Shown: positions 2,115 through 16,972, counted from the first letter of the stretch. The stretch: 18,278 bases of DNA from a virus (IMGVR_UViG_2565956720_000017); one strand, 5' to 3'. Notes: generated from the letters alone by a model not told the origin. A program made the numbers and translations.

Positions 2115-2883
2115 TTATGTTATCCCGCCCAATCATGAAGGCGGTTATATTTATGTGGCGCTTTCTGACATTGGATTAGTTAAGGTTGGAAAAACCAGAA
2201 ATGTTTCAGCCAGAATGAAACAGCTATCCACTGGTAGCGGCATCGAAATCACTAAAGTTGAGGTGTTGGGGCCATTTGTTAATTACGGACAAGTTGAGTT
2301 AGCTATTCATGCAAAACTTTCATCAGAACGCCGCTCTGGTGAATGGTTTTCTGCCGATTTGGATACGGTTAAAGCAATTGCCATCGACGCATCAAGAATT
2401 GGCACTCCAGGTACGAAGTTAGTTAATAAAGATGTTAACCATCCAATAATTGTTTACTTGTGGCTTGACGCACATGAGAAACACACCGAGTACGAGAAAA
2501 AACTATGTGAAATACTGTCTGATAGAGCAATTAACTTTCTTAATAATTATGGTGCGCCTTGCGTCCCATATGTTGCTTTATGCATTCATACAATGGGGCA
2601 GGTCATTCTTCAACAAGGCCAAAAGGCCTACTCTGTGTATCCACGAGGATTTGAAGCGTCCTCATTGCATCAATTAAGGGAGGATTGGGGGAATTTTGCA
2701 GATAAAGATATTTTCGAAAACTCTGAATTTGACGAGTTTCTTATAGATATAAGCGATAAAGATAAATTTAAGTCCGCGGCTGAGAAATGGAGGTCTGAGG
2801 CAATAAATAATCTTTTCGCAGAACTTACAGATGATTACCAGCGCTGGTTAGCCCGCCACATGGAGGTGAGCAGCCATGCGTAA
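2107..2883 (+). CDS. T5orf172 (GIY-YIG-like) domain protein
   Basis: 258 aa. The start overlaps the previous stop (ATGCGTAA) and GGGGGTGA lies upstream. The N-terminus GYIYVALSDIGLVKVGKTRNVSARMKQL...ELAIHAKL...RRSGEWFSADL is the T5orf172/MUG113-type signature. The C-terminal half is AT-rich with no recognisable motif. Confidence 0.65.
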   Translation: MRNYVIPPNHEGGYIYVALSDIGLVKVGKTRNVSARMKQLSTGSGIEITKVEVLGPFVNYGQVELAIHAKLSSERRSGEWFSADLDTVKAIAIDASRIGTPGTKLVNKDVNHPIIVYLWLDAHEKHTEYEKKLCEILSDRAINFLNNYGAPCVPYVALCIHTMGQVILQQGQKAYSVYPRGFEASSLHQLREDWGNFADKDIFENSEFDEFLIDISDKDKFKSAAEKWRSEAINNLFAELTDDYQRWLARHMEVSSHA

Positions 2884-3434
2884 ACCTGTCTTTTATGCCG
2901 GGCGCACTGAAATCTCTGTCATTAAATTCGATGACATTCAGGTGCGCATAGTGAGTATCAACGGCGAACCGTGGTTTGTTGGCGCTGATGTGTGTGCTGC
3001 GCTGGAAATCAGCAATGTTACTGATGCCGTTTCAGTTCTGGATAACGACGAGGTAATGACCCTAGCTTTAACCGAGGGGCATTCCGGTAAGCGTGGTGGT
3101 GCCAGAAGCTGGAATGTTGTCTCTGAATCAGGTTTCTACAAACTGATCGCCCGCAGCCGTAAAGCTTCCACACCAGGCACATTTGCGCACCGTTTCAGTA
3201 ACTGGGTATTCCGCGAGGTTATCCCTTCAATCCGCAAAACGGGGGGGTTATGGTGTTCCGTTTGCCATGCTGAATGATTTCAGTAAACGCCAGGCTGCCT
3301 ATCAACAGGAAGCCAGCAAACGCGGTTACAGGTTACAGCAATGCAAAGAGGCAAAAGATGCACTGGAACGAGAAGAGCGGGCGCTATGGCGTAAATATCA
3401 GCCTGATTTTCTGGAGGGTGAAAACAATGTGTAA
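2876..3434 (+). pseudogene. BRO-N domain antirepressor-like protein, interrupted by a +1 frameshift at a G7 tract
   Basis: The frame starting at 2876 (GGAGGTGA SD) encodes a BRO-N domain (FDDIQVRIVSINGEPWFVGADVCAALEI) and stops at 3277 shortly after GGGGGGG at 3241-3247. The adjacent frame then continues from the same tract to a stop at 3434 (GGYGVPFAMLNDFSKRQAAYQQ...). One fewer G would give a single protein of about 186 aa. This is either an assembly error or a real inactivating or slippage-prone tract. Confidence 0.6.
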
Positions 3435-3481
3435 CGATCCGAACGTTACAGAAAGAAAAAGCGCTACGTTGCTGGATAACT

Positions 3482-3512
3482 GGCAAAACAAAGGCGACCG
3501 GGAGAGGTCGCC
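3482..3512 (-). terminator. Rho-independent terminator for the minus-strand regulator operon
   Basis: Perfect 7-bp stem GGCGACC (3493-3499) / GGTCGCC (3506-3512) with a 6-nt loop. On the minus strand it is followed by TTTGTTTTGCCA (complement of 3481-3492), about 67 nt past the stop of the 3579..3773 gene. Confidence 0.5.
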
Positions 3513-3578
3513 AGTGGGAACAAAGGAAATCAAACGCATCGCCAACAATGCCAGATTTGCAGCTGGTGGGCAATGTGA

Positions 3579-3773
3579 TCAGTCAGATTTGGTTCGTTCC
3601 AGGGTTTGCAACGAGAGCTTTTTCCTGTGCTCTTTAAGGAATTTCTCAAGAGCAAACGAACAAGGTGCGAATCTTTCTGATTCATGTTCATGCGCTATAT
3701 TTTTGCGTCGTCTCTTACGAGTTGGTGATGGTGTTTTGGTTGATTCTTTATCGGTCATTGTGTTGTCCTGCAT
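3579..3773 (-). CDS. small basic hypothetical protein
   Basis: 64-aa ORF from the track with a basic stretch (RKRRRKNIAHEHE). It lies between the upstream minus-strand gene and the minus-strand terminator. There is no convincing SD; an internal start at 3758 is possible. Confidence 0.35.
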   Translation of the reverse strand: MQDNTMTDKESTKTPSPTRKRRRKNIAHEHESERFAPCSFALEKFLKEHRKKLSLQTLERTKSD

Positions 3774-3815
3774 AGCAATGCGCCTGCGTTCCTCAAACTA
3801 TGGCGCTGATAGTGG

Positions 3816-3995
3816 CTATTCCTGCTCTTTGGCCTTCCGGCGCTGTCGGCGTTTGATCTCGCCGCGCATGGCTGCACTTATAAACTGCCCTGTACTTTCG
3901 CCTTCTTCTTTCACGTTTTCCATGCCTTCAATAATTTCATGGGCAATACGTGCAGTTACAGATTGTGATTTTGCATTCTTTGGACCTGTTGCCAT
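3816..3995 (-). CDS. small putative regulatory protein (repressor-like) transcribed divergently from the replication operon
   Basis: Start chosen at the ATG at 3995 (protein MATGPKNAKSQ..., about 59 aa), which has AAGGAG 6 nt upstream on the minus strand. The track's longer 72-aa version starts further upstream without an SD. The gene abuts the operator-bearing divergent promoter. Confidence 0.5.
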   Translation of the reverse strand: MATGPKNAKSQSVTARIAHEIIEGMENVKEEGESTGQFISAAMRGEIKRRQRRKAKEQE

Positions 3996-4016
3996 GTCTA
4001 ACTCCTTATGTTTTTG

Positions 4017-4097
4017 GTGTAAGACAATATACATGAAAAAAAATTATTTTGAAGGGTTGACGTGTAAGACACTGCTATTTTACATTGTGTCTTACAC
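4017..4097. promoter_or_regulatory. divergent promoter region with three copies of a GTGTAAGACA(C) operator
   Basis: Plus-strand -35 TTGACG at 4057-4062 and -10 TTACAT/TACATT at about 4080-4086. An 11-bp perfect inverted repeat, GTGTAAGACAC (4062-4072) and GTGTCTTACAC (4087-4097), brackets the spacer and -10. A third copy, GTGTAAGACA (4017-4026), lies at the expected start of the minus-strand transcript. Confidence 0.55.
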
Positions 4098-4390
4098 CTT
4101 GTTGGTGCAAGGTGCAGAAACGACGAAACCCGGCAGTGCTGGAACACTAACCGGGCTTCTAACCACCAACGATAGCAGAAGTATCGAGGTAGCTATGAGA
4201 AATCATACCACACACCCGCAAGGGCGGGACTCGCACAACCTGAATAAATACATCTGGCGTTTTATCGCCCTGAGCACGGCACAACCGCGCGTAATCCACA
4301 TTGAGGCCACCAGAGAACAGGAAGCCCGTCAGCAATCCCCGGCTGGCTGCGTGATGGTATTTACTGCCCGCATCCGTCAGGAGGAACACT

Positions 4391-4648
4391 ATGCGTGATG
4401 AACGATTTATTCTTCTGGAGCAAAAATTCAGCGAAGCGCCAAAAAATGAAATTGATGCTCTTTTGCATATCGCGAATATGCTAAAAGTAGCAACGTTCCT
4501 TATAGTTTCGAATCTGGAGCATGAAACGGCGTTAGATATACTGAACAGTGCTGTCGATTATTCTGAATATATTGCCGAGGATAAATACAGGCAATTACCA
4601 GATTTGTTAACCCATAAATATAAAGAAGAACCCCATACCGGGAAATAA
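4391..4648 (+). CDS. hypothetical protein
   Basis: 85 aa with a strong SD (AGGAGG 7 nt upstream). It is the first ORF after a leader of about 290 nt. Confidence 0.6.
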   Translation: MRDERFILLEQKFSEAPKNEIDALLHIANMLKVATFLIVSNLEHETALDILNSAVDYSEYIAEDKYRQLPDLLTHKYKEEPHTGK

Positions 4649-4650
4649 AC

Positions 4651-4953
4651 ATGAAGAAGATTAAATTTACTGGCTTAAATGCCAGCGGACAGACTCACCC
4701 GAAAATCAGGATCGGGGATATTTTCCGGGATAAATATGGCGACAGTGTGGTTATTAATTCCGTGTATGAACGGCACATTACATACCGCCGCGCAGGGTAC
4801 GACTATGACTGTGTGATGCCCGTTCATCAGTTCCGGCGTGATTTTTCACTGGTATGTGCAGCACCACGCAGTAAGCCCACCAGTAAAGAGAAAGCACGGG
4901 CAAATATTCAGGTAATAAAGAACATGATTAACGCATTCAGGGGCAAGAAATGA
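4651..4953 (+). CDS. hypothetical protein
   Basis: 100 aa, tightly packed between the preceding ORF and the primase gene; its stop overlaps the primase start (ATGA). Confidence 0.55.
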   Translation: MKKIKFTGLNASGQTHPKIRIGDIFRDKYGDSVVINSVYERHITYRRAGYDYDCVMPVHQFRRDFSLVCAAPRSKPTSKEKARANIQVIKNMINAFRGKK

Positions 4954-7076
4954 AACGCGCACCGAATTTAAAGCACCAGCCGAAAGACAAAATGACGGAG
5001 GTGATTATCTTTGCGGGTAGTGATGCCTGGGCACATGCGAAAGAGTGGAGCGAATGGGCCGGAAAGCATATTGCGGCAGATGATACACATCCAGTTATTC
5101 TTGGACCGGAACAACTGGCGAGTCTGGCAGACACGCAAATCATCGACAAAGGGCGCTATTACGTGCGCGTTTATCGTGCTGGTGAAATATCAGAGCAGCA
5201 CCTTACACAGATAGCGACACTGCTTGCAGTGGCGGGTGTGAAGGAGGCGCGTTGCTACCGCAGCTTTGTTGACCAGCAGCCGGAGGACTGGACACCGCGC
5301 ATGGCTGGACTGAAGGATGATGCGGAACGCGGTAACAGTCTGGTGTTCAACCTTCCGGCAAAGACAAATTTCACCGGAAATTATGATGACGAATTAAAGC
5401 CTCGTGTTGAAAGTCGCGTCGATGGTGTTTTCTGGGTAACGCCCAAAGTGGACAAGCAGTCAGGCGAAATTATCCGGCCTGAGACGTGGTTATGTTCTCC
5501 GCTTGAACTACTGGGAACAGGAACAATCGGCAAAGAGCATTACCGCGTGATGCGCTGGAAAAAACCAGCAAACCATGAGGTCATTACAATGGCGGTCCCG
5601 TGCGGAGGCATTGGTGACCGTGACGGCTGGCGGTTGCTGAAAGACCACGGTCTTAACGTGACGACCAACGGCAAATACAGAGCCATCCTGGCTGACTGGA
5701 TGCAGTTAAGCGGAAGTCATGAGGAATGGCAGCTAAGCACTACAACGGGCTGGCATTTTGGTGCGTACATCATGCCGGATGGTTCGGTCATTGGTGAATC
5801 AGAGAAACCCATCCTGTTTACCGGAAAAACTGCCGCAGTTAATGGCTATTCCGTGGCGGGAACAGCGGAGGGCTGGCGCGATACCGTGGCGCGGCTGGCT
5901 GGTGGTAATCCGTCCATGATGCTGGGTGTGGCGGTATCGCTATCCGCACCATTAATCGGGCTGGTGGGTGCTGACGGCTTCGGGGTTCATCTTTTTGAGC
6001 AATCATCAGCAGGTAAAACCACCACACAGAACATTGCATCAAGTTTATGGGGAGAGCCGGACGCGCAACGGCTGACCTGGTACGGAACGGCGTTAGGTAT
6101 CGCCAACGAGGCCGAAGCACATAATGACGGGCTGTTACCCCTGGATGAAATAGGCCAGGCCGGAAACGCGCGGGAGGTGTCCACGTCAGCCTATACGCTG
6201 TTTAACGGTTCCGGGAAATTACAGGGGGCGAAGGACGGCGGCAACAGGGAGATAAAACACTGGCGCACGGTGGCAATCAGCACCGGAGAAATGGACGTTG
6301 AAACATTCCTCAAAACGGAAGGGATAAAAATTAAAGCGGGGCAGCTTGTCCGTCTGCTTAACGTGCCGATGGAAAAGGCATCGCAGTTTCACGAATACAG
6401 CACCGGAAAGGCGCACGCAGACGCGTTAAAAGATGCCTGGACAGAAAATCACGGGGCGGCAGGTCGTGAGTGGGTTAAATGGCTGGCAGGTCACCAGCAG
6501 GAGGCAAAGGACGCGGTAAGGGCATGTCGCGAGCGGTGGCGCAACCTGATACCGGAGAGCTACGGCGAGCAGGTTCACCGTGTGGGGGAAAGATTCGCCG
6601 TACTGGAGGCCGCGCTTGTGCTTTCCGGTCATGTTACAGGCTGGGATGTTCAGGCGTGCCGTGATGCAGTTCAGCATAACTTTAATGCCTGGGTGAAGGA
6701 ATTCGGCACGGGCAACAGGGAATTTAAACAGATGGTTGAACAGGCTGAGGCGTTTTTGTCGTCGTTCGGGTTCAGTCGATACCTTCCCTATCCAAACAGC
6801 GACGAGCGTGATTTACCGATTAAAGACCTTGCCGGATACAGAAAGGGGAGTATCAGAAACGAAGATGACGAGTTCCGTTTTTACACGTTCCCGCATGTGT
6901 TTGAGGGTGAGATAGCACAGGGATTTAATCCGTCTCACTTTGCCCGCGCGTTGAGTGCTGCCGGAATGCTGGAAGCGGGAGGCGACCGCCGTTACAAGAA
7001 AAAGGCGCTCGGCAGGATTGGCGGGAAGCAGCATATTTTTTACGTGCTGATGTTCCAGCCTGAAGCAGAAGATTAA
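4950..7076 (+). CDS. replication initiation protein, primase/helicase-like with P-loop NTPase (DUF927-like)
   Basis: 708 aa. A Walker A-like P-loop FEQSSAGKTTTQNIA sits in the central region. The gene follows alpA and small ORFs and is immediately followed by an iteron array, the layout of replication proteins in P4/CP4/PICI-type elements. The family name is from memory, not from a search. Confidence 0.7.
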   Translation: MKRAPNLKHQPKDKMTEVIIFAGSDAWAHAKEWSEWAGKHIAADDTHPVILGPEQLASLADTQIIDKGRYYVRVYRAGEISEQHLTQIATLLAVAGVKEARCYRSFVDQQPEDWTPRMAGLKDDAERGNSLVFNLPAKTNFTGNYDDELKPRVESRVDGVFWVTPKVDKQSGEIIRPETWLCSPLELLGTGTIGKEHYRVMRWKKPANHEVITMAVPCGGIGDRDGWRLLKDHGLNVTTNGKYRAILADWMQLSGSHEEWQLSTTTGWHFGAYIMPDGSVIGESEKPILFTGKTAAVNGYSVAGTAEGWRDTVARLAGGNPSMMLGVAVSLSAPLIGLVGADGFGVHLFEQSSAGKTTTQNIASSLWGEPDAQRLTWYGTALGIANEAEAHNDGLLPLDEIGQAGNAREVSTSAYTLFNGSGKLQGAKDGGNREIKHWRTVAISTGEMDVETFLKTEGIKIKAGQLVRLLNVPMEKASQFHEYSTGKAHADALKDAWTENHGAAGREWVKWLAGHQQEAKDAVRACRERWRNLIPESYGEQVHRVGERFAVLEAALVLSGHVTGWDVQACRDAVQHNFNAWVKEFGTGNREFKQMVEQAEAFLSSFGFSRYLPYPNSDERDLPIKDLAGYRKGSIRNEDDEFRFYTFPHVFEGEIAQGFNPSHFARALSAAGMLEAGGDRRYKKKALGRIGGKQHIFYVLMFQPEAED

Positions 7077-7745: not shown

Positions 7746-8243
7746 ATGACAAAGCTGACCATAAACAGAAAACCGAAGGGCATTTACGGCACGCCGCAGA
7801 AAACAGCACAGGCGGCGCAGCAGCAGAATAAAACCACATCGGCGCATAAAGTGATGCCAGATAACCAGAACACACAGCAGAAGCTCACAGGAGCAACACC
7901 GCGGCGGCGTATGACCAAACAGCAGCGTAAAAACCGCAGACGCGTTAACCGTCTTATTGAGCTATGGCCTGAATTATTCAGCCCGGAATCACCTAAGCCG
8001 CTTAAGGTGGGGATATTTGACGACCTGATACAGGATATTGCCGCGAGAGGTATTTCACTCGGACAGGGAACACTACGCGCAACGCTGGCGCGTTATGTGC
8101 AGACTCCGCGCTATTACCGCGCCCTGGTAGCTGGTGGCGCGCGTTACGACCTGAAAGGCCAGCCGTGCGGCGAGGTAACACCACTACAACAGACGCACGC
8201 AGGAAAACTACTGGAGGAGATGAATGGAAATAGTAAGAAATGA
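7746..8243 (+). CDS. ProQ/FinO-domain RNA-binding protein
   Basis: 165 aa. [30 protein letters not shown]...[11 protein letters not shown] parallels the E. coli ProQ N-terminal domain (PLKIGIFQDL...VDLDGNPCGEL) as I recall it. The N-terminus is basic and Gln-rich. Confidence 0.8.
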
Positions 8244-9310: not shown

Positions 9311-11842
9311 ATGCCAGTCGTACCAACAGTATCCGGACGTCAGGTTGAGAGCCGTGGAGTTCAGTCAGCAGGCTTGCAGACGTTTTCTCAGCCAGGTATT
9401 AGTGATGCTTTTGTTCGTGCAGGAGCAGAGGCAATTGATGTTCTGGGTCAGGCAAAACAGCGTGCCAATATTGCCTTGGTTCAGGAGGCATCCCTTAAAC
9501 TCAGTCAGACAGGCAGTGATCTGCTGAATAATCCTGAAACAGGATTGCTTAACCTGAAAGGGAAAAATGCTATTGGAAAAGGCCATGAGTATACGCAGCA
9601 GTTTGATGCTCAGGTCGAACAACTGGCTATGTCGCTGCCGGATGAACAGGCCCGTAATGCTTTCATGCAGCAGGCACAGCAGCAGCGCATTCAGTTCACT
9701 ACGCAGGCCGGGCGGTACGAGATCGGGCAAATAAATGCCTACGAAGAAGGCCAGTTTCAGGCTACGCTGCTGAACAATGGTAAAAATGCCGCAGCATTGT
9801 ATGGCGACAACGCCGCATACGTATTGGCTAATAAGCAAACTTTCCAGCAAATTGAGGAGTACGGCATTGCGCATGGCTGGAGCGACGAGCAGATTCGGGC
9901 CAGGAAAATCGAGTTTAAAGAAGCAACAGCAAAAGCAACTGCTCAAAATGCTATTGGAGCAAACTATCTTCAGGTAAGACAGCAAAACGGCGAGTTAAGC
10001 GATACTGCTGCTGGAGCTCGCCGTGCTGTAGCAGATAGTGGATCTTCCGATCGTACCCGCGGTATACGCAACAATAACCCCGGCAATCTTGAATACAGCA
10101 AAACTAATCCGTGGGTTGGGCAGACTGGTGATGATGGTCGCTTTGCTAAATTCGAAACACCTGAACACGGTATTCGTGCATTAGGGCGGAACCTGATGTC
10201 GTATCAGCGGCAGGGTATTGATACCGTCAGCGAGATAATTAATCGCTGGGCACCGCCTACTGATAAAAATGACACTATGTCGTATATCAAAGCAGTGTGC
10301 GAACAACTTGGCGTTTCTGCTGATGATCCTATAGATGCATCTAATCCGGATACCCTGAAGGCGCTTTGTGCAGCCATTATCCATCATGAAAACGGTAGCC
10401 AGCCATACAGTGATCAGCAGTTAACTGCAGGTGTTAGTGCTGCGCTGGGGCTTTCTCAGCTACCGACAAAAAATAAACGTTATACCGGTGTAGCCTGGTT
10501 CGATGCTTTAAGTGAATCGGATCAGGCCAGCGTGTTGCGACAGACTGATGCACTAGCCAGACAACAGCAGGCTGAATATAAAACGATGCTCGACAGCCGG
10601 GTTCGCGATGCGACAGCTGCGTATATGCGTGGCGTTGAATTTCCTAACCCACCAGGTGAGGCTGATTTTATTGCAGCTTATGGCGTCAGAGAAGGAAACC
10701 TGCGATATACCGAGTTCAGAAATACGCAGATCGCCGGACAGTATATAGGCTCTTTCCGCAACATGCCGACAAGCAGCATTACCGCATATGTTGAGCAATT
10801 GCGCCCGGATACTGGTGAAACAGGGGAGGGGTATGCGTCTCGTGCGGAGTTATTCGACCGGGTATCGGCGGCAGCCACGAAGGTAATAACCCAGAGGCAG
10901 AATAATCCGTTTAGTGCAGCGGTGGAAATCGGAGCCTATAAGCCGATCACCAGCAACAACCCTGACGACATCACTGCCGAGGTGGCTAACCGTTTCTCGT
11001 CGCAGGAAAGCTTACGTTCGTTGGGAATTAATGCCCCAATCCTCAACAGTGAAGAGGCGGCTGCGCTGGCACAGCAGGTGCGCGGCACTCAGAACGTTGA
11101 CCAGACAATTAAACTGTTGCAGAGCATGGGGGAGAAGCTGCCTGCGCCAGCAATACGGCAGGTGGCATCTGTAATTGCTCCGAACAGTGCAGCAACAGCC
11201 TATTCTGCGCTGCTGCTGGGCACGCCGGATAATCAGTACGATAACACCAGGCCGTCGATCCCATATAGTCAGTTCATCGGGTATAAGCCGACGATGAACA
11301 AGTACGACGTTGCAAAGGTTATTCTTTCCGGCGACCAACTACTGAATCCGACGAAGGCCATGAAGAATGCGGGCATAACTCCGGTACAGTTGCCGAGCGA
11401 AGATAAGATGAAAGACGCTTTCGACGAACAGGTAGGTAATGCATTTGCCCGTAACCCGCAGTTACGCCAGATCAGTTATAGCCTTTTCAAAGCCGCTTAC
11501 GCAGGAATAGCTTATCAGTCTGGTGATGCATCTACGGTAAGAACCAGTATGCCTGATACAGACATTGTAGCTGATGCCGTGAAGTATGCTACTGGCGGTA
11601 TATACAATGGTTTTAATGGCGGCGACGTTGTAATGCCTTTCGGCATGGATAAATCTACTTTCAAAGATCGCTATACCACATCTGCGAAACAAGCACTGAA
11701 AGATGCCGGACTTAACGTAAATGCAGTGTCAAATTTCACGCCAGTTAATATCGGCAATAACCGGTATCGGCTGGTAAATGGTAGCGGACGCTGGGCAACA
11801 GATCCCAGAACCAATAAAGCTATTGTCGTGAGGGTTGAATAA
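9311..11842 (+). CDS. large protein of unknown function (843 aa), first gene of the cargo operon
   Basis: Long uninterrupted frame with a strong SD (AGGAGGT 7 nt upstream). It is Gln/Ala-rich and contains the conserved-looking block RGIRNNNPGNLEYSKTNPWVGQTGDDGRFAKFETPEHGIRALGRNLMSYQ. Its stop overlaps the next start (TAATG). Confidence 0.8.
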   Translation: MPVVPTVSGRQVESRGVQSAGLQTFSQPGISDAFVRAGAEAIDVLGQAKQRANIALVQEASLKLSQTGSDLLNNPETGLLNLKGKNAIGKGHEYTQQFDAQVEQLAMSLPDEQARNAFMQQAQQQRIQFTTQAGRYEIGQINAYEEGQFQATLLNNGKNAAALYGDNAAYVLANKQTFQQIEEYGIAHGWSDEQIRARKIEFKEATAKATAQNAIGANYLQVRQQNGELSDTAAGARRAVADSGSSDRTRGIRNNNPGNLEYSKTNPWVGQTGDDGRFAKFETPEHGIRALGRNLMSYQRQGIDTVSEIINRWAPPTDKNDTMSYIKAVCEQLGVSADDPIDASNPDTLKALCAAIIHHENGSQPYSDQQLTAGVSAALGLSQLPTKNKRYTGVAWFDALSESDQASVLRQTDALARQQQAEYKTMLDSRVRDATAAYMRGVEFPNPPGEADFIAAYGVREGNLRYTEFRNTQIAGQYIGSFRNMPTSSITAYVEQLRPDTGETGEGYASRAELFDRVSAAATKVITQRQNNPFSAAVEIGAYKPITSNNPDDITAEVANRFSSQESLRSLGINAPILNSEEAAALAQQVRGTQNVDQTIKLLQSMGEKLPAPAIRQVASVIAPNSAATAYSALLLGTPDNQYDNTRPSIPYSQFIGYKPTMNKYDVAKVILSGDQLLNPTKAMKNAGITPVQLPSEDKMKDAFDEQVGNAFARNPQLRQISYSLFKAAYAGIAYQSGDASTVRTSMPDTDIVADAVKYATGGIYNGFNGGDVVMPFGMDKSTFKDRYTTSAKQALKDAGLNVNAVSNFTPVNIGNNRYRLVNGSGRWATDPRTNKAIVVRVE

Positions 11843-13902
11843 TGTCTGATGTTTTTTCTTTGGCTCCAGAAGGTCAGGCATGGATTGACGACAAAACAGT
11901 TGCCAACCCAGCAAGGCCAGAAGACTACGATCCGACTCCATTCCAGGGTTCAGGTACTGCACTTTTGAGCGGCGTGGCGGAGGGGGCTCTCGGTCTCGCG
12001 CAGTCTGCCGTCGGATTCAGCAAGCGCCTGATTAGCGATCCGGCATTTACCGCAGACGTGGCACCGACTGTTAATATTTTTCGGGAGATGTTCCCTGATG
12101 CTGACAAAACACTGAATGATACATACGACACGATCGGAAAACAGTTACAGGATGCCCGCAGCTATGTGAAGCCTGATGCAGGCAGTCAGGGAATGGCGGC
12201 TGAGGTATTAAATGAGCTTGGTAAATTTGTTCCTGCAATCGGAACAACTATGTTTGGCGGTCCCCTCATCGGCGCTGCTACAGCTTTCAGTTCTACGTAT
12301 GAGCAGTCCTATCAGGATTTTAAAGGGAAGGGAGTAGACGAGGCTACGGCGCGTAACCTGGCAACGCAGCAAAGCCTTTTCAATGCTGTGGGTATGGCCT
12401 TACCCGCTGCCGTCGGCACCACACTGGCAACGCGCATTGCCTCAGGTGTGGCAATCAACACCGGATTCGGTGGACTGAACCGTTACTCTGTCGGCGCAAC
12501 ACTGGAGGAAAAAGGCTACACGGAGATGGCAAAACAGTACCGGGTATTTGACGGTCAGGCGATGTTAGTCGATGCCGTTTTAGGCGGGGTCTTTGGTGGC
12601 GTTCATCACCTGACTACCCATAATAACCATGATGGTACAGAGTCGAACATTTCTGCAGAAGAAATAAAATCAACTTTTGGTGAACATTATCAGCAATCTC
12701 CTGATGGTAACATTGAGTCAATGGTTCGTGATTTATCTGATTCAGGAGTAATAGAACTTATTAATGAACCAGCAATAAAAAATAGTGATGGAGAAATACT
12801 TCTGAATAAAGGTCATGTGACAGTAGCTTCTGGAAAAGAACCAATAATAAGAATAAATATTAATGGATTAAAAGATCATGAAGAACTGTTAGAAACCCTT
12901 CATCACGAGGCGCTTCATCTTGAGCAGCGCCATTACCCTGACTGGAAGGCCAGAAAGCTAGCTAATGCTGTACTTAAATCTGCAAACAAGCATTCTGACT
13001 ATCCTGAATTTGCATATGGGATGTCACAATATTATGAATATAAGAAAAGGGGTGAGTACCCTGAAACATATCCTGAGTGGTTGTACGCTGAAGAAGTTGC
13101 CGCACATGCAGTAAATCCATCTCTAAAGACAAGCGTTTCATCATGGGAAAAAATTATTTCAGGTTTTAAAGCCTATATATTCAGATACAGTGGTATTCAG
13201 GTTGGAACCGTTACACCTGAGCAGTTACGGTTACTCGTAAGTATGCGTCTTCGCAATATGAAACTGGAAGCCGCAGTCGAAAAAGTTTTTGGTATCCGGG
13301 CAAGGGAAAGAATAAAACCAAGCGATATTGATGCAGCCCACATTTTGAATGAGGGGCTTCATTACGATATTGAATCGTCACCAGTGCTTCACACCAGCAA
13401 TGAGAGCATCAACAGCCATGTTGACGCCATGGATGAAGCATACAGGCAACTTAATGATGGTCAGCCTGTAAATGTTGGGGGGATGGCGCGAGGGCTTGAT
13501 GGTCCATTGCGATCAGATATATCTGATACTTACCAAGAGCAATACCATGAAATACAAAAGGTTTTTGAAGAAAATGGTGTCAGATATGAAACATCATCAG
13601 AGCCAATTAGTGAATCGCCTGTCCCTCGTGCTGAAAGTGCTTTCTCATCGGCTGGTGAACACAGAGGGGACGTCAGCGTTGATCCAGATACAGGGCAGGT
13701 TCTCTCATCCAACAGCTATGACCTTATGGCTGCCAGAGACATGGCTGTTGCCAATCCTGAGCTGACTATAGCTCACCCGGAAACCGGAAACCCGACAAAA
13801 CTTTCTGATCTCCTGGCTGAGTTGGATGAACAGATTAAGACAGTCCAGAACGAATCGAAGGTTTATTCTGTAGCGGCAGCGTGCTTCTTGAGGAACCCAT
13901 AA
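11842..13902 (+). CDS. large protein of unknown function (686 aa) with Gly/Ala-rich hydrophobic segments and an inserted HExxH module
   Basis: TAATG start overlap with the upstream gene and GAGGG upstream. The N-terminal half has several Gly/Ala-rich hydrophobic stretches (for example FVPAIGTTMFGGPLIGAATAF and AVGMALPAAVGTTLATRIASGVAINTGFGG). The central AT-rich segment encodes HHEALHLEQRHYPDW. The C-terminus is acidic. Confidence 0.8.
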   Translation: MSDVFSLAPEGQAWIDDKTVANPARPEDYDPTPFQGSGTALLSGVAEGALGLAQSAVGFSKRLISDPAFTADVAPTVNIFREMFPDADKTLNDTYDTIGKQLQDARSYVKPDAGSQGMAAEVLNELGKFVPAIGTTMFGGPLIGAATAFSSTYEQSYQDFKGKGVDEATARNLATQQSLFNAVGMALPAAVGTTLATRIASGVAINTGFGGLNRYSVGATLEEKGYTEMAKQYRVFDGQAMLVDAVLGGVFGGVHHLTTHNNHDGTESNISAEEIKSTFGEHYQQSPDGNIESMVRDLSDSGVIELINEPAIKNSDGEILLNKGHVTVASGKEPIIRININGLKDHEELLETLHHEALHLEQRHYPDWKARKLANAVLKSANKHSDYPEFAYGMSQYYEYKKRGEYPETYPEWLYAEEVAAHAVNPSLKTSVSSWEKIISGFKAYIFRYSGIQVGTVTPEQLRLLVSMRLRNMKLEAAVEKVFGIRARERIKPSDIDAAHILNEGLHYDIESSPVLHTSNESINSHVDAMDEAYRQLNDGQPVNVGGMARGLDGPLRSDISDTYQEQYHEIQKVFEENGVRYETSSEPISESPVPRAESAFSSAGEHRGDVSVDPDTGQVLSSNSYDLMAARDMAVANPELTIAHPETGNPTKLSDLLAELDEQIKTVQNESKVYSVAAACFLRNP

Positions 13903-16658
13903 TGAAACAGGCATGTGTTGAAGCTATTGCGCAGACACTTGGTCGCCAGCCAAAGGCTGATGAGCTGAAAAATATTGAAGATCGTATCAAAGAAGCTGTG
14001 CAGCATGTGCACAGAAAGAATGCAAAAGAAGGAAAAAGTGGTATTCCTGATGCTCAAACATACATGGATGCAGCAGAACTGGTACGCCAGCGTGTGGTTC
14101 ATGATGTGTACAAGAAAAGACAGCGTGTTGCCCACAATGCGATCGCCATCAGTAAAATTATTGACACTCTCGATGCTAACATCCCGCCTGATCAGCAGAC
14201 ACCTGTTAATTTGCAGCAGTTTATTTTTGCTGGCCGACGATCGAGAGACAAAGCTGATATCTCCGTTACTTCTGCTGAAGAGCTTGCAATTGGGGCATAT
14301 CAGGACTGGTCCCGTCAGCTCAGTGCTGAACTTCTAAAAGCAGGTGATGACGTCCGCAAATTCTTCGAGCAGAGCAGGGCGCTTGGAGAGCAGCGGTTTC
14401 GGAGTGTATTCGACAGGCAGGCGGCAAAGTCTGCACAACTCCAGATCCTTAAAGAGATTTACGGCGAAGATACCGGGAATCCACTGGCGAAGAAAATTGC
14501 ACAGATTTGGAAGGATGTAACAAGCCGTGTTCGCCATGAGATGAACGACAACGGCTTTGACATAGGCCAGCGAGACGACTGGAATATGCCATATGTGGAT
14601 GATGCTGACCTTATTCGCAATGCCGGGCGCGAAGAATGGCTGGCATCGTTACCAGTGACAGAACAAGCTACAGCACGTCTTTCAGGTCGCCAGCCACCGA
14701 TTGAGTTTGCCCGCCAGGCATGGGTTGATGACGTTTACAACACGCAGGATCGCAGCAATTACGTTAATCCTGATGGCAGCATTATGAATGACGTTGAGTA
14801 CCGTCAGGCACTGGAAGCGATCTTTGAAACGAAGGCCACTGATGGGGCAAACAAAATTGAGCCTGGTACATTTATGGGAGCCGGAGGAATAAAGAGCCGT
14901 GGTTCTCAGCACAGGGTGATGGCGTTCAAGGATGCGCAGTCACACTTCGCCTATATGGAGCGATACACTCAGCAGCCGCTGGTGGGGGTGATGATGTCGC
15001 ACCTGCAATCATCATCCAGGGATTTGGGCGTCGTTAAAGCCTTTGGTCCGGACGCCGAAAGAAACTTTTCCCTGGTACTGGATCGCATCTATAAGCGCGC
15101 AGTAACAGGCGGGAAACGCAAAAAAGAAATGGAGGATGAGGCCAAATTAGTAGCCCGTATGTTCAACTCAATGGCTGGCCTAAATGGTGTCGCTTCATCG
15201 AGTGTGTTCTCTTCAGCTGTTGGTGGTCTGCGTAACCTGATGACCAGCGCCATGCTTGGCACCAGCGTACTGACAGCAACCAGCGACCAGGCAATTATGC
15301 GGGCAAATGCGCAGGCGCTGGGCTTTACCCGTGGTGGAATGCGGCTTTCCGTTAACACTATCAAAAACCTGTTTAGTGGAGATGCCAAAAAGGCGAATGC
15401 TGAACTCGGTCTGCTGGTGGATTCACATGCTGCTGTGGTTTCGAAAATGGGCGGGTTTGACTTGTCTCGCGGCATAACTGGCTGGTTCGCAGAGAAGACA
15501 CTGAAGTGGTCCGGGCTGATCGCTATGGACCGCGCAAACAAAGCGTCGTTTGGTCTCCTGATGTACAAAAACATTGGCGAGCTGACCAGAAAATTTAAGA
15601 CGCTGGACGATATGAAAGGAACCGATAAAACCATTCTGGCTAACAAGGGATGGAGCAATGAGGACTGGGCCATCATGGCAGCGGCAGAACTCAGGCCGAT
15701 GACTACAGCCGGGCATATGGGGATGACGCCAGACGCGATTTACGCTGTGCCCGATAACGTAATCGCCGACATTATGGCAGACCGTATTGCCCGGATTCGT
15801 GCCGGGAGTGAAAAGGCACTGGCAGCCCTTGGTGATCTCCCTCCAGAACGCCAGAAACGGATGAAAGAAGCATTCGACGCTGAGGCTGAGCAGACCATCA
15901 TGCGCATGATTCGTAATGCACGCGCTGAAGCAGCCCAGAAATTGCTGGGAATTACGCACGGTGAGATGACCAATGCTGTGACCACCGCTACGGGTATTGA
16001 TACATATGCCCGTGATGATGCTGGCGAGTTAATGAAGAGCTTCATGCTCTTCAAAACAACCCCATTTGCTGGATTTCGGCAACTTGTTAACAGAACACGG
16101 GATTTGGACACCGTTCCGGCCATTAAATTTCTGGCCTCATATATCGGGGGAACAACTCTTGCTGGTATGTTTGCGATCCAGATGAACAGTTTGTTAAATG
16201 GTAATGACCCGCTGGATATGACAAAACCAACCACATGGGTTCAGGCTCTACTGAAAGGTGGTTCGTTCGGTATCTACGGTGATTTTATTTTCCAGGACCA
16301 TACGCAATATGGCTCCAGCATCGGTGCCACTATGGGTGGCCCTGTGTTGAGCTTTGCAGAGCAGTTAACAAAATTACTGATTACTAACCCACAGAAGGCT
16401 ATACAGGGTGAAGAAACATCATTCGGTGCCGATGCACTGAAAACAGCCCGCATGATCACCCCATTCGCAAACCTGTGGTATGCGAAAGCGATAACCAATC
16501 ACCTGATATTGCAACAACTTCAGGAGATGGCAAACCCTGGTTACAATGATCGAGTAAGGGACCGCGCGCAACGGGAGTTCGACATAACGAGTTGGTGGGA
16601 ACCGGGTGCTATTGCGCCACGTAGAGCACCGGATTTTGGAAAGGCGGTGGGGAACTGA
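13902..16658 (+). CDS. large protein of unknown function (about 918 aa)
   Basis: Start placed at the ATG at 13902, which overlaps the upstream stop (TAATG) and has GAGGAA upstream. The track's start at 13881 lies inside the previous gene and lacks an SD. Gly/Ser/Ala-rich hydrophobic patches occur in the C-terminal third. Confidence 0.75.
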   Translation: MKQACVEAIAQTLGRQPKADELKNIEDRIKEAVQHVHRKNAKEGKSGIPDAQTYMDAAELVRQRVVHDVYKKRQRVAHNAIAISKIIDTLDANIPPDQQTPVNLQQFIFAGRRSRDKADISVTSAEELAIGAYQDWSRQLSAELLKAGDDVRKFFEQSRALGEQRFRSVFDRQAAKSAQLQILKEIYGEDTGNPLAKKIAQIWKDVTSRVRHEMNDNGFDIGQRDDWNMPYVDDADLIRNAGREEWLASLPVTEQATARLSGRQPPIEFARQAWVDDVYNTQDRSNYVNPDGSIMNDVEYRQALEAIFETKATDGANKIEPGTFMGAGGIKSRGSQHRVMAFKDAQSHFAYMERYTQQPLVGVMMSHLQSSSRDLGVVKAFGPDAERNFSLVLDRIYKRAVTGGKRKKEMEDEAKLVARMFNSMAGLNGVASSSVFSSAVGGLRNLMTSAMLGTSVLTATSDQAIMRANAQALGFTRGGMRLSVNTIKNLFSGDAKKANAELGLLVDSHAAVVSKMGGFDLSRGITGWFAEKTLKWSGLIAMDRANKASFGLLMYKNIGELTRKFKTLDDMKGTDKTILANKGWSNEDWAIMAAAELRPMTTAGHMGMTPDAIYAVPDNVIADIMADRIARIRAGSEKALAALGDLPPERQKRMKEAFDAEAEQTIMRMIRNARAEAAQKLLGITHGEMTNAVTTATGIDTYARDDAGELMKSFMLFKTTPFAGFRQLVNRTRDLDTVPAIKFLASYIGGTTLAGMFAIQMNSLLNGNDPLDMTKPTTWVQALLKGGSFGIYGDFIFQDHTQYGSSIGATMGGPVLSFAEQLTKLLITNPQKAIQGEETSFGADALKTARMITPFANLWYAKAITNHLILQQLQEMANPGYNDRVRDRAQREFDITSWWEPGAIAPRRAPDFGKAVGN

Positions 16659-16972
16659 TGACGAGAGATAAAATTGAATATATTGCTTCTCTTAAATATG
16701 AAGCTGAGAAATGGAGAAGGATTGGCGGGTGGGGAACATTAATATCACTCTCTGCTTTACTTATAGACTCCTGGTTCAGACATATTGATGCAGCATCATT
16801 ACTTTTTGAATCAGCAGTACTTGGTGGATTCATTTGCTGTTGGGGTGGTAATTATGATCGGGCGTCCAAACATAAGAGAGAACTTGACGCGATATGTTTT
16901 GCTTTATTCGGTAAGGATTACGAAAGTTCTGACCTTGATATAATTGAATTCAACAAAACGGAACTATCGTGA
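16658..16972 (+). CDS. small membrane protein (two predicted hydrophobic helices)
   Basis: 104 aa with a start overlapping the upstream stop (TGATG). Two hydrophobic segments (GTLISLSALLIDSWF and LLFESAVLGGFICCWGG) are visible. It is AT-richer than the operon and followed directly by a strong terminator. Confidence 0.6.
   Translation: MTRDKIEYIASLKYEAEKWRRIGGWGTLISLSALLIDSWFRHIDAASLLFESAVLGGFICCWGGNYDRASKHKRELDAICFALFGKDYESSDLDIIEFNKTELS

What the first reader, a model, noticed from the sequence alone, without database searches (positions are those of the whole stretch)
3996..4100. Genetic-switch-like divergent promoter with a triplicated GTGTAAGACA operator
A near-consensus sigma70 promoter for the replication operon is overlapped by an 11-bp perfect inverted repeat (4062-4072 and 4087-4097). 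A third copy of the half-site (4017-4026) sits at the start of the divergent small-regulator transcript. This architecture suggests a repressor that controls both the replication operon and its own gene, probably the switch that keeps the element quiescent until a helper signal arrives.
Basis: seen in the sequence. Interest (0 to 1): 0.5.

Follow-up and report, generated by a model that had tools for sequence, protein, structure and literature searches.

The report
Satellite repressor operator with swappable specificity
The three repeats are very probably docking sites for a tiny ribbon-helix-helix repressor (the neighbouring YlcI/YnfO gene) that shuts off both the replication operon and its own gene in a phage-satellite island; the same module sits in the model island EcCICFT073, where no repressor has yet been identified.

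Summary
GTGTAAGACA occurs exactly three times within 82 bp (4017-4026 and 4062-4071 on +, 4088-4097 on -) and nowhere else in the 18 kb window. The copies overlap two back-to-back sigma70-like promoters.

Comparison of 134 related loci changes the anatomy. The unit is not a half-site but a complete 11-13 bp box, (G)GTG-N5-CAC(C).
- Box 1 abuts the -10 of the leftward ylcI promoter.
- Box 2 is fused to the -35 of the rightward promoter.
- Box 3 covers its -10/+1.

Best reading: YlcI is an autoregulated RHH repressor of the icd-primase operon. This rests on comparative evidence only, with no experiment. Box 3 is inverted in some classes and direct in others, so the palindrome is incidental.

Also found: a covariation-supported SymR-like antisense RNA opposite the icd start.

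The kind is known (RHH operator). The family assignment and its satellite context look undescribed.

The parts
4016..4026 (+). Box 1 (GGTGTAAGACA). It abuts the -10 and covers +1 of the leftward ylcI promoter, and is the presumed autoregulatory site. In relatives it often deviates by 1-3 bases in the N5 core and usually lacks the final C of CAC, so it is possibly weaker.
   Evidence: position and core conserved in relatives
4061..4072 (+). Box 2 (cGTGTAAGACAC). Its first G is the last base of the -35 hexamer, and it occupies the spacer of the rightward promoter.
   Evidence: -35 TTGACG/TTGAAG/TTGAGG fused to the box in 76 of 81 distinct relatives
4087..4098 (-). Box 3 (GGTGTAAGACAC read on the minus strand). 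It starts directly after the -10 and covers the predicted +1 of the rightward promoter. It is inverted here and direct in other classes.
   Evidence: box 3 starts -2 to +2 nt from the end of the -10 in 63 of 80 relatives and +9 to +11 in 16
4057..4086 (+). Rightward promoter of the icd-orf85-DUF4222-primase operon: TTGACG, 18-nt spacer, TACATT. Predicted start about 4093-4095.
   Evidence: conserved hexamers and 17-18 nt spacing in relatives. The start site is inferred, not mapped.
4026..4053 (-). Leftward promoter of ylcI: TTCAAA, 16-nt spacer, TATATT. Predicted start about 4019. The -10 is TATACT in most relatives.
3816..3995 (-). ylcI-like gene, 59 aa. Predicted ribbon-helix-helix repressor: beta-strand about residues 10-17, helix 19-28, helix 35-58, and a near-invariant basic segment E46-R52 (EIKRRQR) in the C-terminal part of helix 2.
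3579..3758 (-). Second small ORF (59 aa) downstream of ylcI on the same strand. It is an accessory gene, not the specificity factor.
   Evidence: The same protein is found with TAAGA, GGCCA and TATTT classes, and it is absent from many loci. PHROG 21027, unknown function.
4095..4114 (+). Stem-loop at the 5' end of the predicted rightward transcript (CACCUUG-uuggug-CAAGGUG). It begins in the CACC of box 3.
   Evidence: a hairpin is kept with different sequences in relatives; not analysed formally
4115..4198 (-). SymR-like antisense RNA. The RNA proper runs from about 4196/4194 to about 4122, complementary to the SD and start codon of the icd-like gene. It has three helices.
   Evidence: Rfam symR 33 bits, E 1.8e-4, below the gathering score of 61 and 35-45 bits in 5 relatives. 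95.4% of cells paired, 15 pairs with compensatory changes, 0/500 shuffles. 161 G-U cells on this strand against 3 on the other. Model R1 hits K-12 symR exactly.
4202..4210 (-). Extended -10 (TGgTATGAT) of the antisense RNA, inside codons 3-6 of the icd-like gene. The TAnnnT pattern is kept in most of the aligned relatives despite coding changes.
   Evidence: sequence; alignment A3; inferred
4195..4398 (+). icd-like gene, 67 aa. This is the probable true start, with SD GAGG at 4186-4189. The RefSeq ORF 3922-4398 runs across ylcI and the promoter and is over-extended.
   Evidence: NF033153 matches only residues 110-153 of the long ORF. The equivalent short ORF is annotated in CFT073 and Nissle 1917.

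Best explanation
The window is a PICI-like phage satellite inserted between yicC and dinD. Its gene order is int, alpA, Rha, GIY-YIG, BRO-N, then the leftward genes orf59 and ylcI, then the rightward genes icd, orf85, DUF4222, DUF927 primase, ssb, ProQ/FinO and cargo.

The 59-aa YlcI/YnfO protein is a ribbon-helix-helix dimer. It recognises 11-13 bp boxes of the form GGTG-N5-CACC. I infer that invariant residues (S10, R16) read the invariant GTG/CAC frame, and that variable residues 12 and 14, on the same face of the beta-strand, read the variable N5 core.

Boxes 2 and 3 occupy the spacer and the -10/+1 region of the rightward promoter. Bound repressor would therefore exclude RNA polymerase from the icd-primase (replication) operon. 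Box 1 abuts the -10 of ylcI's own promoter and would give negative autoregulation. It is often less well matched in relatives, so it is probably filled last.

The ylcI-operator cassette is exchanged between elements as a unit, giving many mutually distinct repressor-operator specificities (inferred immunity types).

A second, independent lock sits downstream. A SymR-like antisense RNA covers the ribosome-binding site of the potentially toxic icd-like gene.

Shown by computation: the repeats, their conservation in position, the co-variation with YlcI, the RHH fold, and the structured antisense RNA.

Inferred: binding itself, repression, relative affinities, and how repression is lifted. My guess for release is AlpA-dependent read-through from the upstream co-oriented operon, or an anti-repressor, after helper induction.
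For: - **Repeats are real and non-random:**
- **Three boxes at fixed promoter positions:** found in 134 of the 135 loci analysed (83 distinct YlcI/upstream combinations).
- **Concerted core changes:** the N5 core is shared by the boxes of one element and differs between elements. Each core class goes with its own YlcI 10-17 motif: TAAGA with SQSVTARI, GGCCA with SQALKARV, TCCGT with SQK(T/I)SVRI, GAsTC with SQK(L/V)Q(A/T)RA, TATTT with SQMTT(V/I)RI, CAAGT with SQQITARI, GCATT with SQQIVSRV, CGATT with SQQLNARF, GTTAG with STQIASRV, CTAAG with STQLASRV, and GTGTT with SLQVSVRL.
- **Specificity positions:** residues 12 and 14 carry the highest mutual information with box class (2.02 and 1.98 of 2.75 bits) and almost no variation within a class. 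S10 and R16 are invariant. This is the alternating pattern expected of a DNA-reading beta-strand.
- **Other candidates excluded by shuffling:**
  - Identical AlpA occurs with 3 classes.
  - orf59 is shared among classes or absent.
  - Icd types are shared among classes.
  - The icd-primase side is 92-97% identical over 1.2 kb between elements of different class, while their YlcI proteins are 61-71% identical.
- **Same module in the model PICI:** it is present in EcCICFT073 and in about 700 of 5426 complete E. coli genomes.
Against: - No experimental binding, footprint, reporter or transcript-start data exist for any member.
- ylcI and the boxes are adjacent, so linkage alone produces some association. 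The argument rests on concerted change of three separate boxes and on which residues vary.
- An 11-13 bp box is long for one RHH dimer, so the stoichiometry is unknown.
- Box 2 to box 3 spacing varies (22-26 or 35-36 bp), so no fixed helical phasing supports cooperativity.
- The promoters are consensus matches only.
Confidence: 0.75

Rival explanations
1. The boxes are bound by another element-encoded protein (AlpA, the Icd-like protein that PHROGs label 'transcriptional repressor', orf59, or the primase), and YlcI does something else.
For: The PHROG label on the Icd-like ORF. AlpA is the proven regulator of Gram-negative PICIs (PMC6092414).
Against: The PHROG label is probably inherited from records such as P4's, where the historical 'cI' ORF is annotated as transcriptional repressor. 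Identical AlpA, orf59 and Icd types occur with several box classes. The icd-primase side is near-identical between elements of different class. Only YlcI tracks the core.
Confidence: 0.05
2. YlcI binds the boxes but acts mainly as an activator or architectural factor, for example a partition- or centromere-like RHH or a replication-origin accessory protein, rather than as a repressor of the replication operon.
For: Many RHH proteins are centromere-binding (ParG, omega, and the weak CB_ParB_C hits). No expression data exist. The 3' half of the GTGTT-class box resembles the P4 type I origin iteron TGTTCACC (annotation, my comparison).
Against: There are only three boxes. Each is locked to a promoter element: box 2 is fused to the -35, and boxes 1 and 3 abut the -10 hexamers. 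These are positions that occlude RNA polymerase. No further copies exist in the window. PICI origins lie downstream of the primase gene (PMC6092414).
Confidence: 0.1
3. The 4062-4097 inverted repeat acts at the RNA or DNA-structure level, as a hairpin, attenuator or cruciform, rather than as protein-binding sites.
For: A perfect 11-bp stem with a 14-nt loop. A weak miRNA-like fold hit (E 1.8).
Against: Box 3 is in direct orientation in the GGCCA, CGATT, GTGTT, GTTAG, CTAAG and TCCGT classes, where no hairpin can form. The repeat lies upstream of the predicted start. No U-tract follows it.
Confidence: 0.02
4. Chance repeats in an AT-rich intergenic region.
For: Promoter-like hits in the region are not above chance. 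Low-complexity runs inflate repeat counts in shuffles.
Against: 0 of 3000 shuffles gave three non-overlapping copies. The three-box plan recurs in 134 of the 135 loci analysed, with class-specific cores.
Confidence: 0.01

Closest known systems
Omega repressor of inc18 plasmids (pSM19035), PDB 1irq/2bnw
   Different: Omega binds contiguous 7-bp heptads in arrays. Here there are three separate 11-13 bp boxes with a symmetric GTG/CAC frame around an asymmetric 5-bp core. There is no detectable sequence similarity. The context is a satellite, not a plasmid.
Arc/Mnt (phage P22 immI) and CopG-type RHH repressors
   Same: Tiny RHH proteins whose beta-ribbon reads the major groove. Their operators overlap promoters, they autoregulate, and they control a divergent or overlapping promoter.
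   Different: Different operator architecture (Arc binds a 21-bp operator as a tetramer). The YlcI family is not captured by Pfam RHH models. It has a long second helix with a near-invariant basic EIKRRQR segment.
Stl/Rpr master repressors of Gram-positive PICIs (SaPIs)
   Same: Same logic and position. The repressor gene is divergent from the replication operon and is proposed to hold the island silent.
   Different: Stl is a larger protein, an HTH repressor as far as I recall, that is relieved by helper-phage proteins. YlcI is a 59-aa RHH, and nothing is known of its release. For Gram-negative PICIs the literature names AlpA as activator and calls a global repressor 'unclear' (PMC6092414).
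Phage P4 immunity (P_LE promoter and CI RNA upstream of icd and alpha)
   Same: Same place in a syntenic layout: AlpA/Vis-type gene upstream, then a promoter, an Icd-like gene and a primase operon.
   Different: P4 uses a sense-strand CI RNA that causes premature termination, and has no ylcI. No C4/CI-like RNA was found here. My RNA model does not hit P4.
SymR antisense RNA of the E. coli SymE-SymR type I toxin-antitoxin pair (Rfam RF01809)
   Same: For the neighbouring RNA only. It has the same size and similar helices. Its 5' end overlaps the start codon and SD of the gene opposite. There are reciprocal sub-threshold hits.
   Different: Scores are below Rfam's gathering score (33-45 against 61 bits). 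The target is an Icd-like cell-division inhibitor gene, not symE.

Membership tests
Ribbon-helix-helix (MetJ/Arc/CopG) superfamily | Beta-alpha-alpha fold with an N-terminal strand | tested here: met
Ribbon-helix-helix (MetJ/Arc/CopG) superfamily | Alternate residues of the strand read the bases, so they should determine specificity | tested here: met
   Positions 12 and 14 have the highest mutual information with box class. S10 and R16 are invariant. This is covariation only, not a contact map.
Ribbon-helix-helix (MetJ/Arc/CopG) superfamily | Conserved G-x-S/T/N turn at the start of helix 2 | tested here: met
   G32 (at least 90%), E33 and S34 invariant, T35 at least 90%, immediately before helix 35-58
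Ribbon-helix-helix (MetJ/Arc/CopG) superfamily | Significant match to a curated RHH sequence model | tested here: not met
   No Pfam hit for the window protein. RHH_1 matched in 1 of 65 relatives at E 0.009, and RHH_5 in 1 at E 0.09. The PDB profile search was empty.
Ribbon-helix-helix (MetJ/Arc/CopG) superfamily | Obligate dimer that forms the two-stranded ribbon | not testable with these tools
   Only single-chain prediction is available.
YlcI/YnfO family (NCBIfam NF041551; formerly DUF3950) | Score above the curated cut-off | tested here: met
   66.8 bits against a cut-off of 30, residues 9-50. PHROG 949, function unknown.
Lambda-type bistable switch (CI/Cro on a tripartite operator) | Three operator sites shared by two divergent promoters | tested here: met
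   Boxes 1-3 and the two back-to-back promoters
Lambda-type bistable switch (CI/Cro on a tripartite operator) | Two antagonistic DNA-binding regulators, one from each promoter | tested here: not met
   The first rightward gene is Icd-like, with no DNA-binding domain found. Its types are shuffled relative to box class.
PICI master repressor (Stl/Rpr) | Repressor gene divergent from the replication operon, with operators on the intervening promoters | tested here: met
   Gene order and box positions. The same holds in EcCICFT073.
PICI master repressor (Stl/Rpr) | Repression relieved by a helper-phage protein, with derepression starting the island's cycle | not testable with these tools
   Needs genetics or biochemistry.
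P4-type RNA immunity (CI / C4 antisense RNA family) | CI/C4-like RNA in the leader with complementary target sites | tested here: not met
   No C4 hit even at E 10. R1 does not hit P4. The structured RNA lies on the opposite strand.
SymR (Rfam RF01809), for the neighbouring antisense RNA | Score at or above the gathering threshold (61 bits) | tested here: not met
   33 bits in the window. 35.5-44.9 bits in five relatives.
SymR (Rfam RF01809), for the neighbouring antisense RNA | Cis-antisense RNA whose 5' end overlaps the start codon and SD of the opposite gene, with a conserved fold | tested here: met
   Arrangement. 25 pairs, 95.4% paired, 15 pairs with compensatory changes. A reciprocal hit to K-12 symR at its annotated coordinates and strand, 32.7 bits, E 2.5e-5.

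The most novel reading that the evidence does not exclude
YlcI/YnfO-type RHH proteins are the missing master repressors of many Gram-negative PICIs and cf-PICIs, including the model island EcCICFT073. They come in a dozen or more operator specificities that are swapped as cassettes and set island-specific 'immunity'. Induction works by overriding this repressor, through AlpA-driven read-through or antitermination across the convergent ylcI cassette or through an anti-repressor. A SymR-like antisense RNA, possibly helped by the island's own ProQ/FinO protein, independently gates the toxic Icd-like gene.
Probability: 0.35. Interest if true: 0.7.

Novelty: new member of a known kind. Interest (0 to 1): 0.55.

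Why it matters
- **An open question becomes testable.** Gram-negative PICIs are described as controlled by the activator AlpA, and whether they have a global repressor is called unclear (PMC6092414). This work points to a specific 59-aa candidate and its operators. The module is present in EcCICFT073 itself and in roughly one in eight complete E. coli genomes, so the idea can be tested directly in an established system.
- **A function for an uncharacterised family.** It gives a first functional hypothesis for the YlcI/YnfO (DUF3950) family.
- **A natural recognition table.** The data pair at least 11 beta-strand motifs with their 5-bp cores. This is useful for RHH recognition rules and for designing orthogonal repressor-operator pairs.
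- **A wider home for SymR.** The SymR-like RNA suggests that the SymR regulatory cassette is widespread on satellites.

Tried and rejected
- **Rfam at gathering thresholds** found nothing in the window. Only the permissive scan showed the symR-like hit.
- **Phage-collection DNA search** with 3560-4660 gave one short hit, vB_KppS-Ant.
- **P4 comparison.** P4's 'cI' ORF and its CI-RNA region show no significant similarity beyond a faint Icd pattern. This explains the misleading PHROG label 'transcriptional repressor' on the Icd-like ORF.
- **Literature searches** for YlcI/YnfO/DUF3950, for PICI repressors and for an Icd antisense RNA found no functional study. One search hit the isocitrate dehydrogenase gene icd instead.
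- **Features rejected as chance.** The imperfect fourth copy at 3995-4004 is at chance level and not conserved. The 9-nt repeat GGAACACTA at 4141-4149 and 4383-4391 is also chance (about one such pair is expected in 800 bp).
- **Module-shuffling test.** A first threshold of at least 97% identity over 900 nt gave no pairs. Relaxing it showed pairs at 92-97% over about 1.2 kb.
- **Cargo ORFs.** PADLOC and Pfam gave nothing.
- **Two Rfam calls** failed on size limits.

Full report
**1. Observation**

- GTGTAAGACA is exact at 4017-4026 (+), 4062-4071 (+) and 4088-4097 (-).
- The repeat finder reports a perfect 11-nt inverted repeat at 4062-4072/4087-4097, and a second at 4016-4026/4088-4098.
- No other exact copy exists in the 18 kb window. 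Copies with two mismatches are at chance level.
- Three non-overlapping copies of a 10-mer in 3996-4100 arose in 0 of 3000 dinucleotide shuffles.

The consensus scan finds two back-to-back promoters.
- Rightward: TTGACG (4057), 18-nt spacer, TACATT (4086).
- Leftward: TTCAAA (4053), 16-nt spacer, TATATT (4026).
- Each matches 9 of 12 positions.

**2. Context**

The window is 100% identical over the 1.6-kb stretch compared (3400-5000) to an island between yicC and dinD in E. coli SCEC020022. Its gene order is:
- integrase, a hypothetical gene, AlpA (1123-1341), Rha, GIY-YIG, and a frameshifted BRO-N gene, all rightward;
- two leftward small genes, orf59 (3579-3758) and YlcI/YnfO (3816-3995);
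- then rightward: Icd-like, orf85, DUF4222, DUF927 primase, SSB, ProQ/FinO, PerC and three large unknown ORFs.

This is the layout of Gram-negative PICIs. RefSeq's Icd-like ORF (3922-4398) runs across ylcI and the promoter. The family model matches only its last 45 residues. A good SD precedes the ATG at 4195, and the short form is what is annotated in CFT073 and Nissle 1917. The true gene is therefore probably 4195-4398. The PHROG label 'transcriptional repressor' on this ORF is probably inherited from records such as P4's, where the historical 'cI' ORF carries that product name. It is not evidence of DNA binding.

**3. Comparative anatomy**

YlcI homologues were fetched with flanks from genomes, viral contigs and metagenomes.
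- 135 loci were usable, giving 83 distinct YlcI/upstream combinations.
- All but one show the same plan.
- There are three boxes of the form (G)GTG-N5-CAC(C).

Box positions:
- Box 1 lies about 20 nt upstream of the ylcI start codon and abuts a conserved -10 (TATACT or TATATT) on the ylcI strand.
- Box 2 is fused to the -35 of the rightward promoter. The hexamer is TTGACG in 49, TTGAAG in 19 and TTGAGG in 8 of 81 distinct regions.
- A -10 of the TAnnnT type follows at 17-18 nt.
- Box 3 starts within 2 nt of the end of that -10 in 63 of 80 regions, and 9-11 nt later in 16.

In promoter coordinates, box 2 fills the spacer. Boxes 1 and 3 each cover about -7 to +5 of their promoter. These are positions that occlude RNA polymerase.

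**4. What the unit is**

- The GTG/CAC frame is constant and symmetric.
- The central five bases differ between elements but are the same, or within one base, in the boxes of one element.
- The classes seen are TAAGA, GGCCA, TCCGT, GA(G/C)TC, TATTT/TATGT, CAAGT, GCATT, CGATT, GTTAG, CTAAG and GTGTT.
- Box 3 is inverted relative to box 2 in the TAAGA, TATTT, GCATT and CAAGT classes.
- Box 3 is direct in the GGCCA, CGATT, GTGTT, GTTAG, CTAAG and TCCGT classes.
- The start-to-start distance from box 2 to box 3 is 22-26 or 35-36 bp.

The 11-bp palindrome in this window is therefore a by-product of two oppositely oriented whole sites. It is not a dyad operator made of half-sites, and it cannot be a conserved RNA hairpin.

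**5. Which protein reads the boxes**

Each core class goes with one YlcI motif at residues 10-17. Examples are SQSVTARI with TAAGA, SQALKARV with GGCCA, SQMTTVRI with TATTT and SLQVSVRL with GTGTT.

Across 62 distinct proteins:
- Positions 12 and 14 carry the highest mutual information with class (2.02 and 1.98 of 2.75 bits).
- Their within-class entropy is 0.08 and 0.
- S10 and R16 on the same face are invariant.

Linkage alone cannot explain this, because the rest of the element is shuffled against box class.
- Identical AlpA proteins occur with GGCCA, TAAGA and TATTT boxes.
- The same orf59 occurs with three classes, and it is missing from many loci.
- Icd types are shared among classes.
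- Elements that are 92-97% identical over about 1.2 kb of the icd-primase side carry YlcI proteins only 61-71% identical, with different boxes.

The ylcI-plus-operator cassette is thus exchanged as a unit.

**6. Fold**

- YlcI matches NCBIfam NF041551 but no Pfam family.
- With a 65-sequence alignment, AlphaFold gives pLDDT 89.9. The model has an extended N-terminal segment, helix 19-28, a conserved G-E-S-T turn and helix 35-58.
- Foldseek and sequence-profile searches found nothing. Weak Pfam hits (RHH_1, RHH_5, CB_ParB_C) are at best suggestive.

The alternating invariant and variable strand residues fit an RHH ribbon in the major groove. It is my inference, not a result, that R16/S10 read GTG/CAC and residues 12 and 14 read N5.

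**7. Mechanism proposed**

- YlcI dimers occupy boxes 2 and 3 and block the promoter of the icd-orf85-DUF4222-primase operon.
- Box 1 gives negative autoregulation. In many relatives it deviates by 1-3 bases in the core and usually lacks the final C, so it is probably weaker.
- How repression is lifted is unknown.
- AlpA is the helper-induced activator of these islands (PMC6092414, PMC11773190). A Pseudomonas AlpA acts as an antiterminator (PMC7969949).
- The alpA operon here runs towards the convergent ylcI cassette. No convincing rightward terminator was found in the stretch scanned from 3500. Read-through that both interferes with ylcI and enters the replication operon is a plausible route.
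- Anti-repression by the Rha or BRO proteins, or by a helper protein, is another route. Both are speculation.

**8. A second regulator next door**

The stretch 4115-4198 is more conserved than the coding DNA around it.
- Rfam's symR model hits the minus strand below threshold: 33 bits in the window and 35-45 bits in five relatives.
- On an alignment of 47 sequences, a three-helix structure has 95.4% paired cells and 15 pairs with compensatory changes. It beats all 500 shuffles and all slid controls.
- Of the paired cells, 161 are G-U on the ylcI strand and only 3 on the icd strand. The functional RNA is therefore antisense to icd. The structure was derived on that strand, which biases the percentage paired but not the G-U asymmetry.
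- A covariance model built from it finds the annotated symR of K-12 at its exact coordinates and strand (32.7 bits, E 2.5e-5). It also finds a copy in the induced satellite vB_KppS-Ant, which has no annotated ylcI in the stretch fetched. It does not hit P4.
- An extended -10 (TGgTATGAT, 4210-4202) fits a start at 4194-4196, opposite the icd start codon and SD.

By analogy with SymR/SymE, this RNA should block translation of the Icd-like cell-division inhibitor.

**9. Comparison with known systems**

- **Kind.** This is a classical RHH repressor-operator with autoregulation. The closest in behaviour is omega of inc18 plasmids, whose asymmetric repeats are usable in either orientation. Arc/Mnt and CopG are also close.
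- **Role and position.** It parallels Stl/Rpr of Gram-positive PICIs. It sits where P4 has its RNA-based immunity, but it meets neither family's defining features (see the membership table).
- **Not a lambda-type switch.** No second DNA-binding regulator is evident.

**10. Novelty and limits**

I found no functional study of YlcI/YnfO. One 2026 survey merely lists it as an accessory gene of cf-PICIs (PMC13612085). The 2018 PICI paper states that a global repressor in Gram-negative islands is unclear.

The same cassette is in EcCICFT073 itself: YlcI of 59 aa with SQALKARV, and boxes GGTGGGGGACA, GTGGGCCACAC and GTGGGCCACACC. A 101-aa variant is in Nissle 1917 and ATCC 25922. Homologues occur in 701 of 5426 complete E. 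coli genomes.

Everything here is computational. Binding, repression, start sites and the release mechanism remain to be shown.

Noticed in passing
window 4115-4198, minus strand: A structured antisense RNA of about 75 nt lies opposite the SD and start codon of the icd-like gene. It has reciprocal sub-threshold similarity to SymR of the SymE-SymR toxin-antitoxin pair, strong covariation, and an extended -10 at 4210-4202. It is also present in the satellite vB_KppS-Ant (L003 2850-2933).
   Followed up: yes
window 3922-4398 against 4195-4398: The RefSeq 'Icd-like' ORF of 158 aa overlaps ylcI and the whole promoter region. The conserved domain and the SD indicate a 67-aa protein starting at 4195. 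The PHROG label 'transcriptional repressor' for it probably traces to the old P4 'cI' ORF annotation.
   Followed up: partly
window 7746-8243: The island encodes a ProQ/FinO-family protein (Pfam PF04352, 84 bits). It could be a chaperone for the SymR-like antisense RNA. This is a speculative link.
   Followed up: no
window 4095-4114: A stem-loop at the predicted 5' end of the rightward transcript starts in the CACC of box 3. Relatives keep a hairpin there with different sequences. It may be a 5' stabilising structure.
   Followed up: partly
window 9311-16972: Four co-oriented ORFs (843, 686, 918 and 104 aa) in the cargo region have no Pfam or PADLOC match. They may be an uncharacterised defence or accessory system.
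   Followed up: partly
L180 8243-9053 (E. coli CFT073, EcCICFT073) and L178 8848-9550 (Nissle 1917): The model PICI EcCICFT073 carries the same orf59-ylcI-boxes-icd module (GGCCA class). Nissle 1917 has a 101-aa YlcI variant with degenerate TAAGA-type boxes plus an extra inverted copy.
   Followed up: partly
L006 4961-5029, L010 4946-5011, L013 4969-5037, L014 347-413: The Rfam int-alpA RNA motif (RF02996) is present above threshold in related islands, but nothing reached threshold in this window.
   Followed up: no
window 2876-3434: The BRO-N domain gene of the alpA operon is frameshifted in this island (RefSeq pseudogene). The island may therefore be partly decayed.
   Followed up: no
L002 (phage P4) ori type I repeats against L013/L015/L016 boxes: The P4 origin iteron TGTTCACC equals the 3' part of the GTGTT-class box GGTGGTGTTCACC. 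This is probably coincidence.
   Followed up: no
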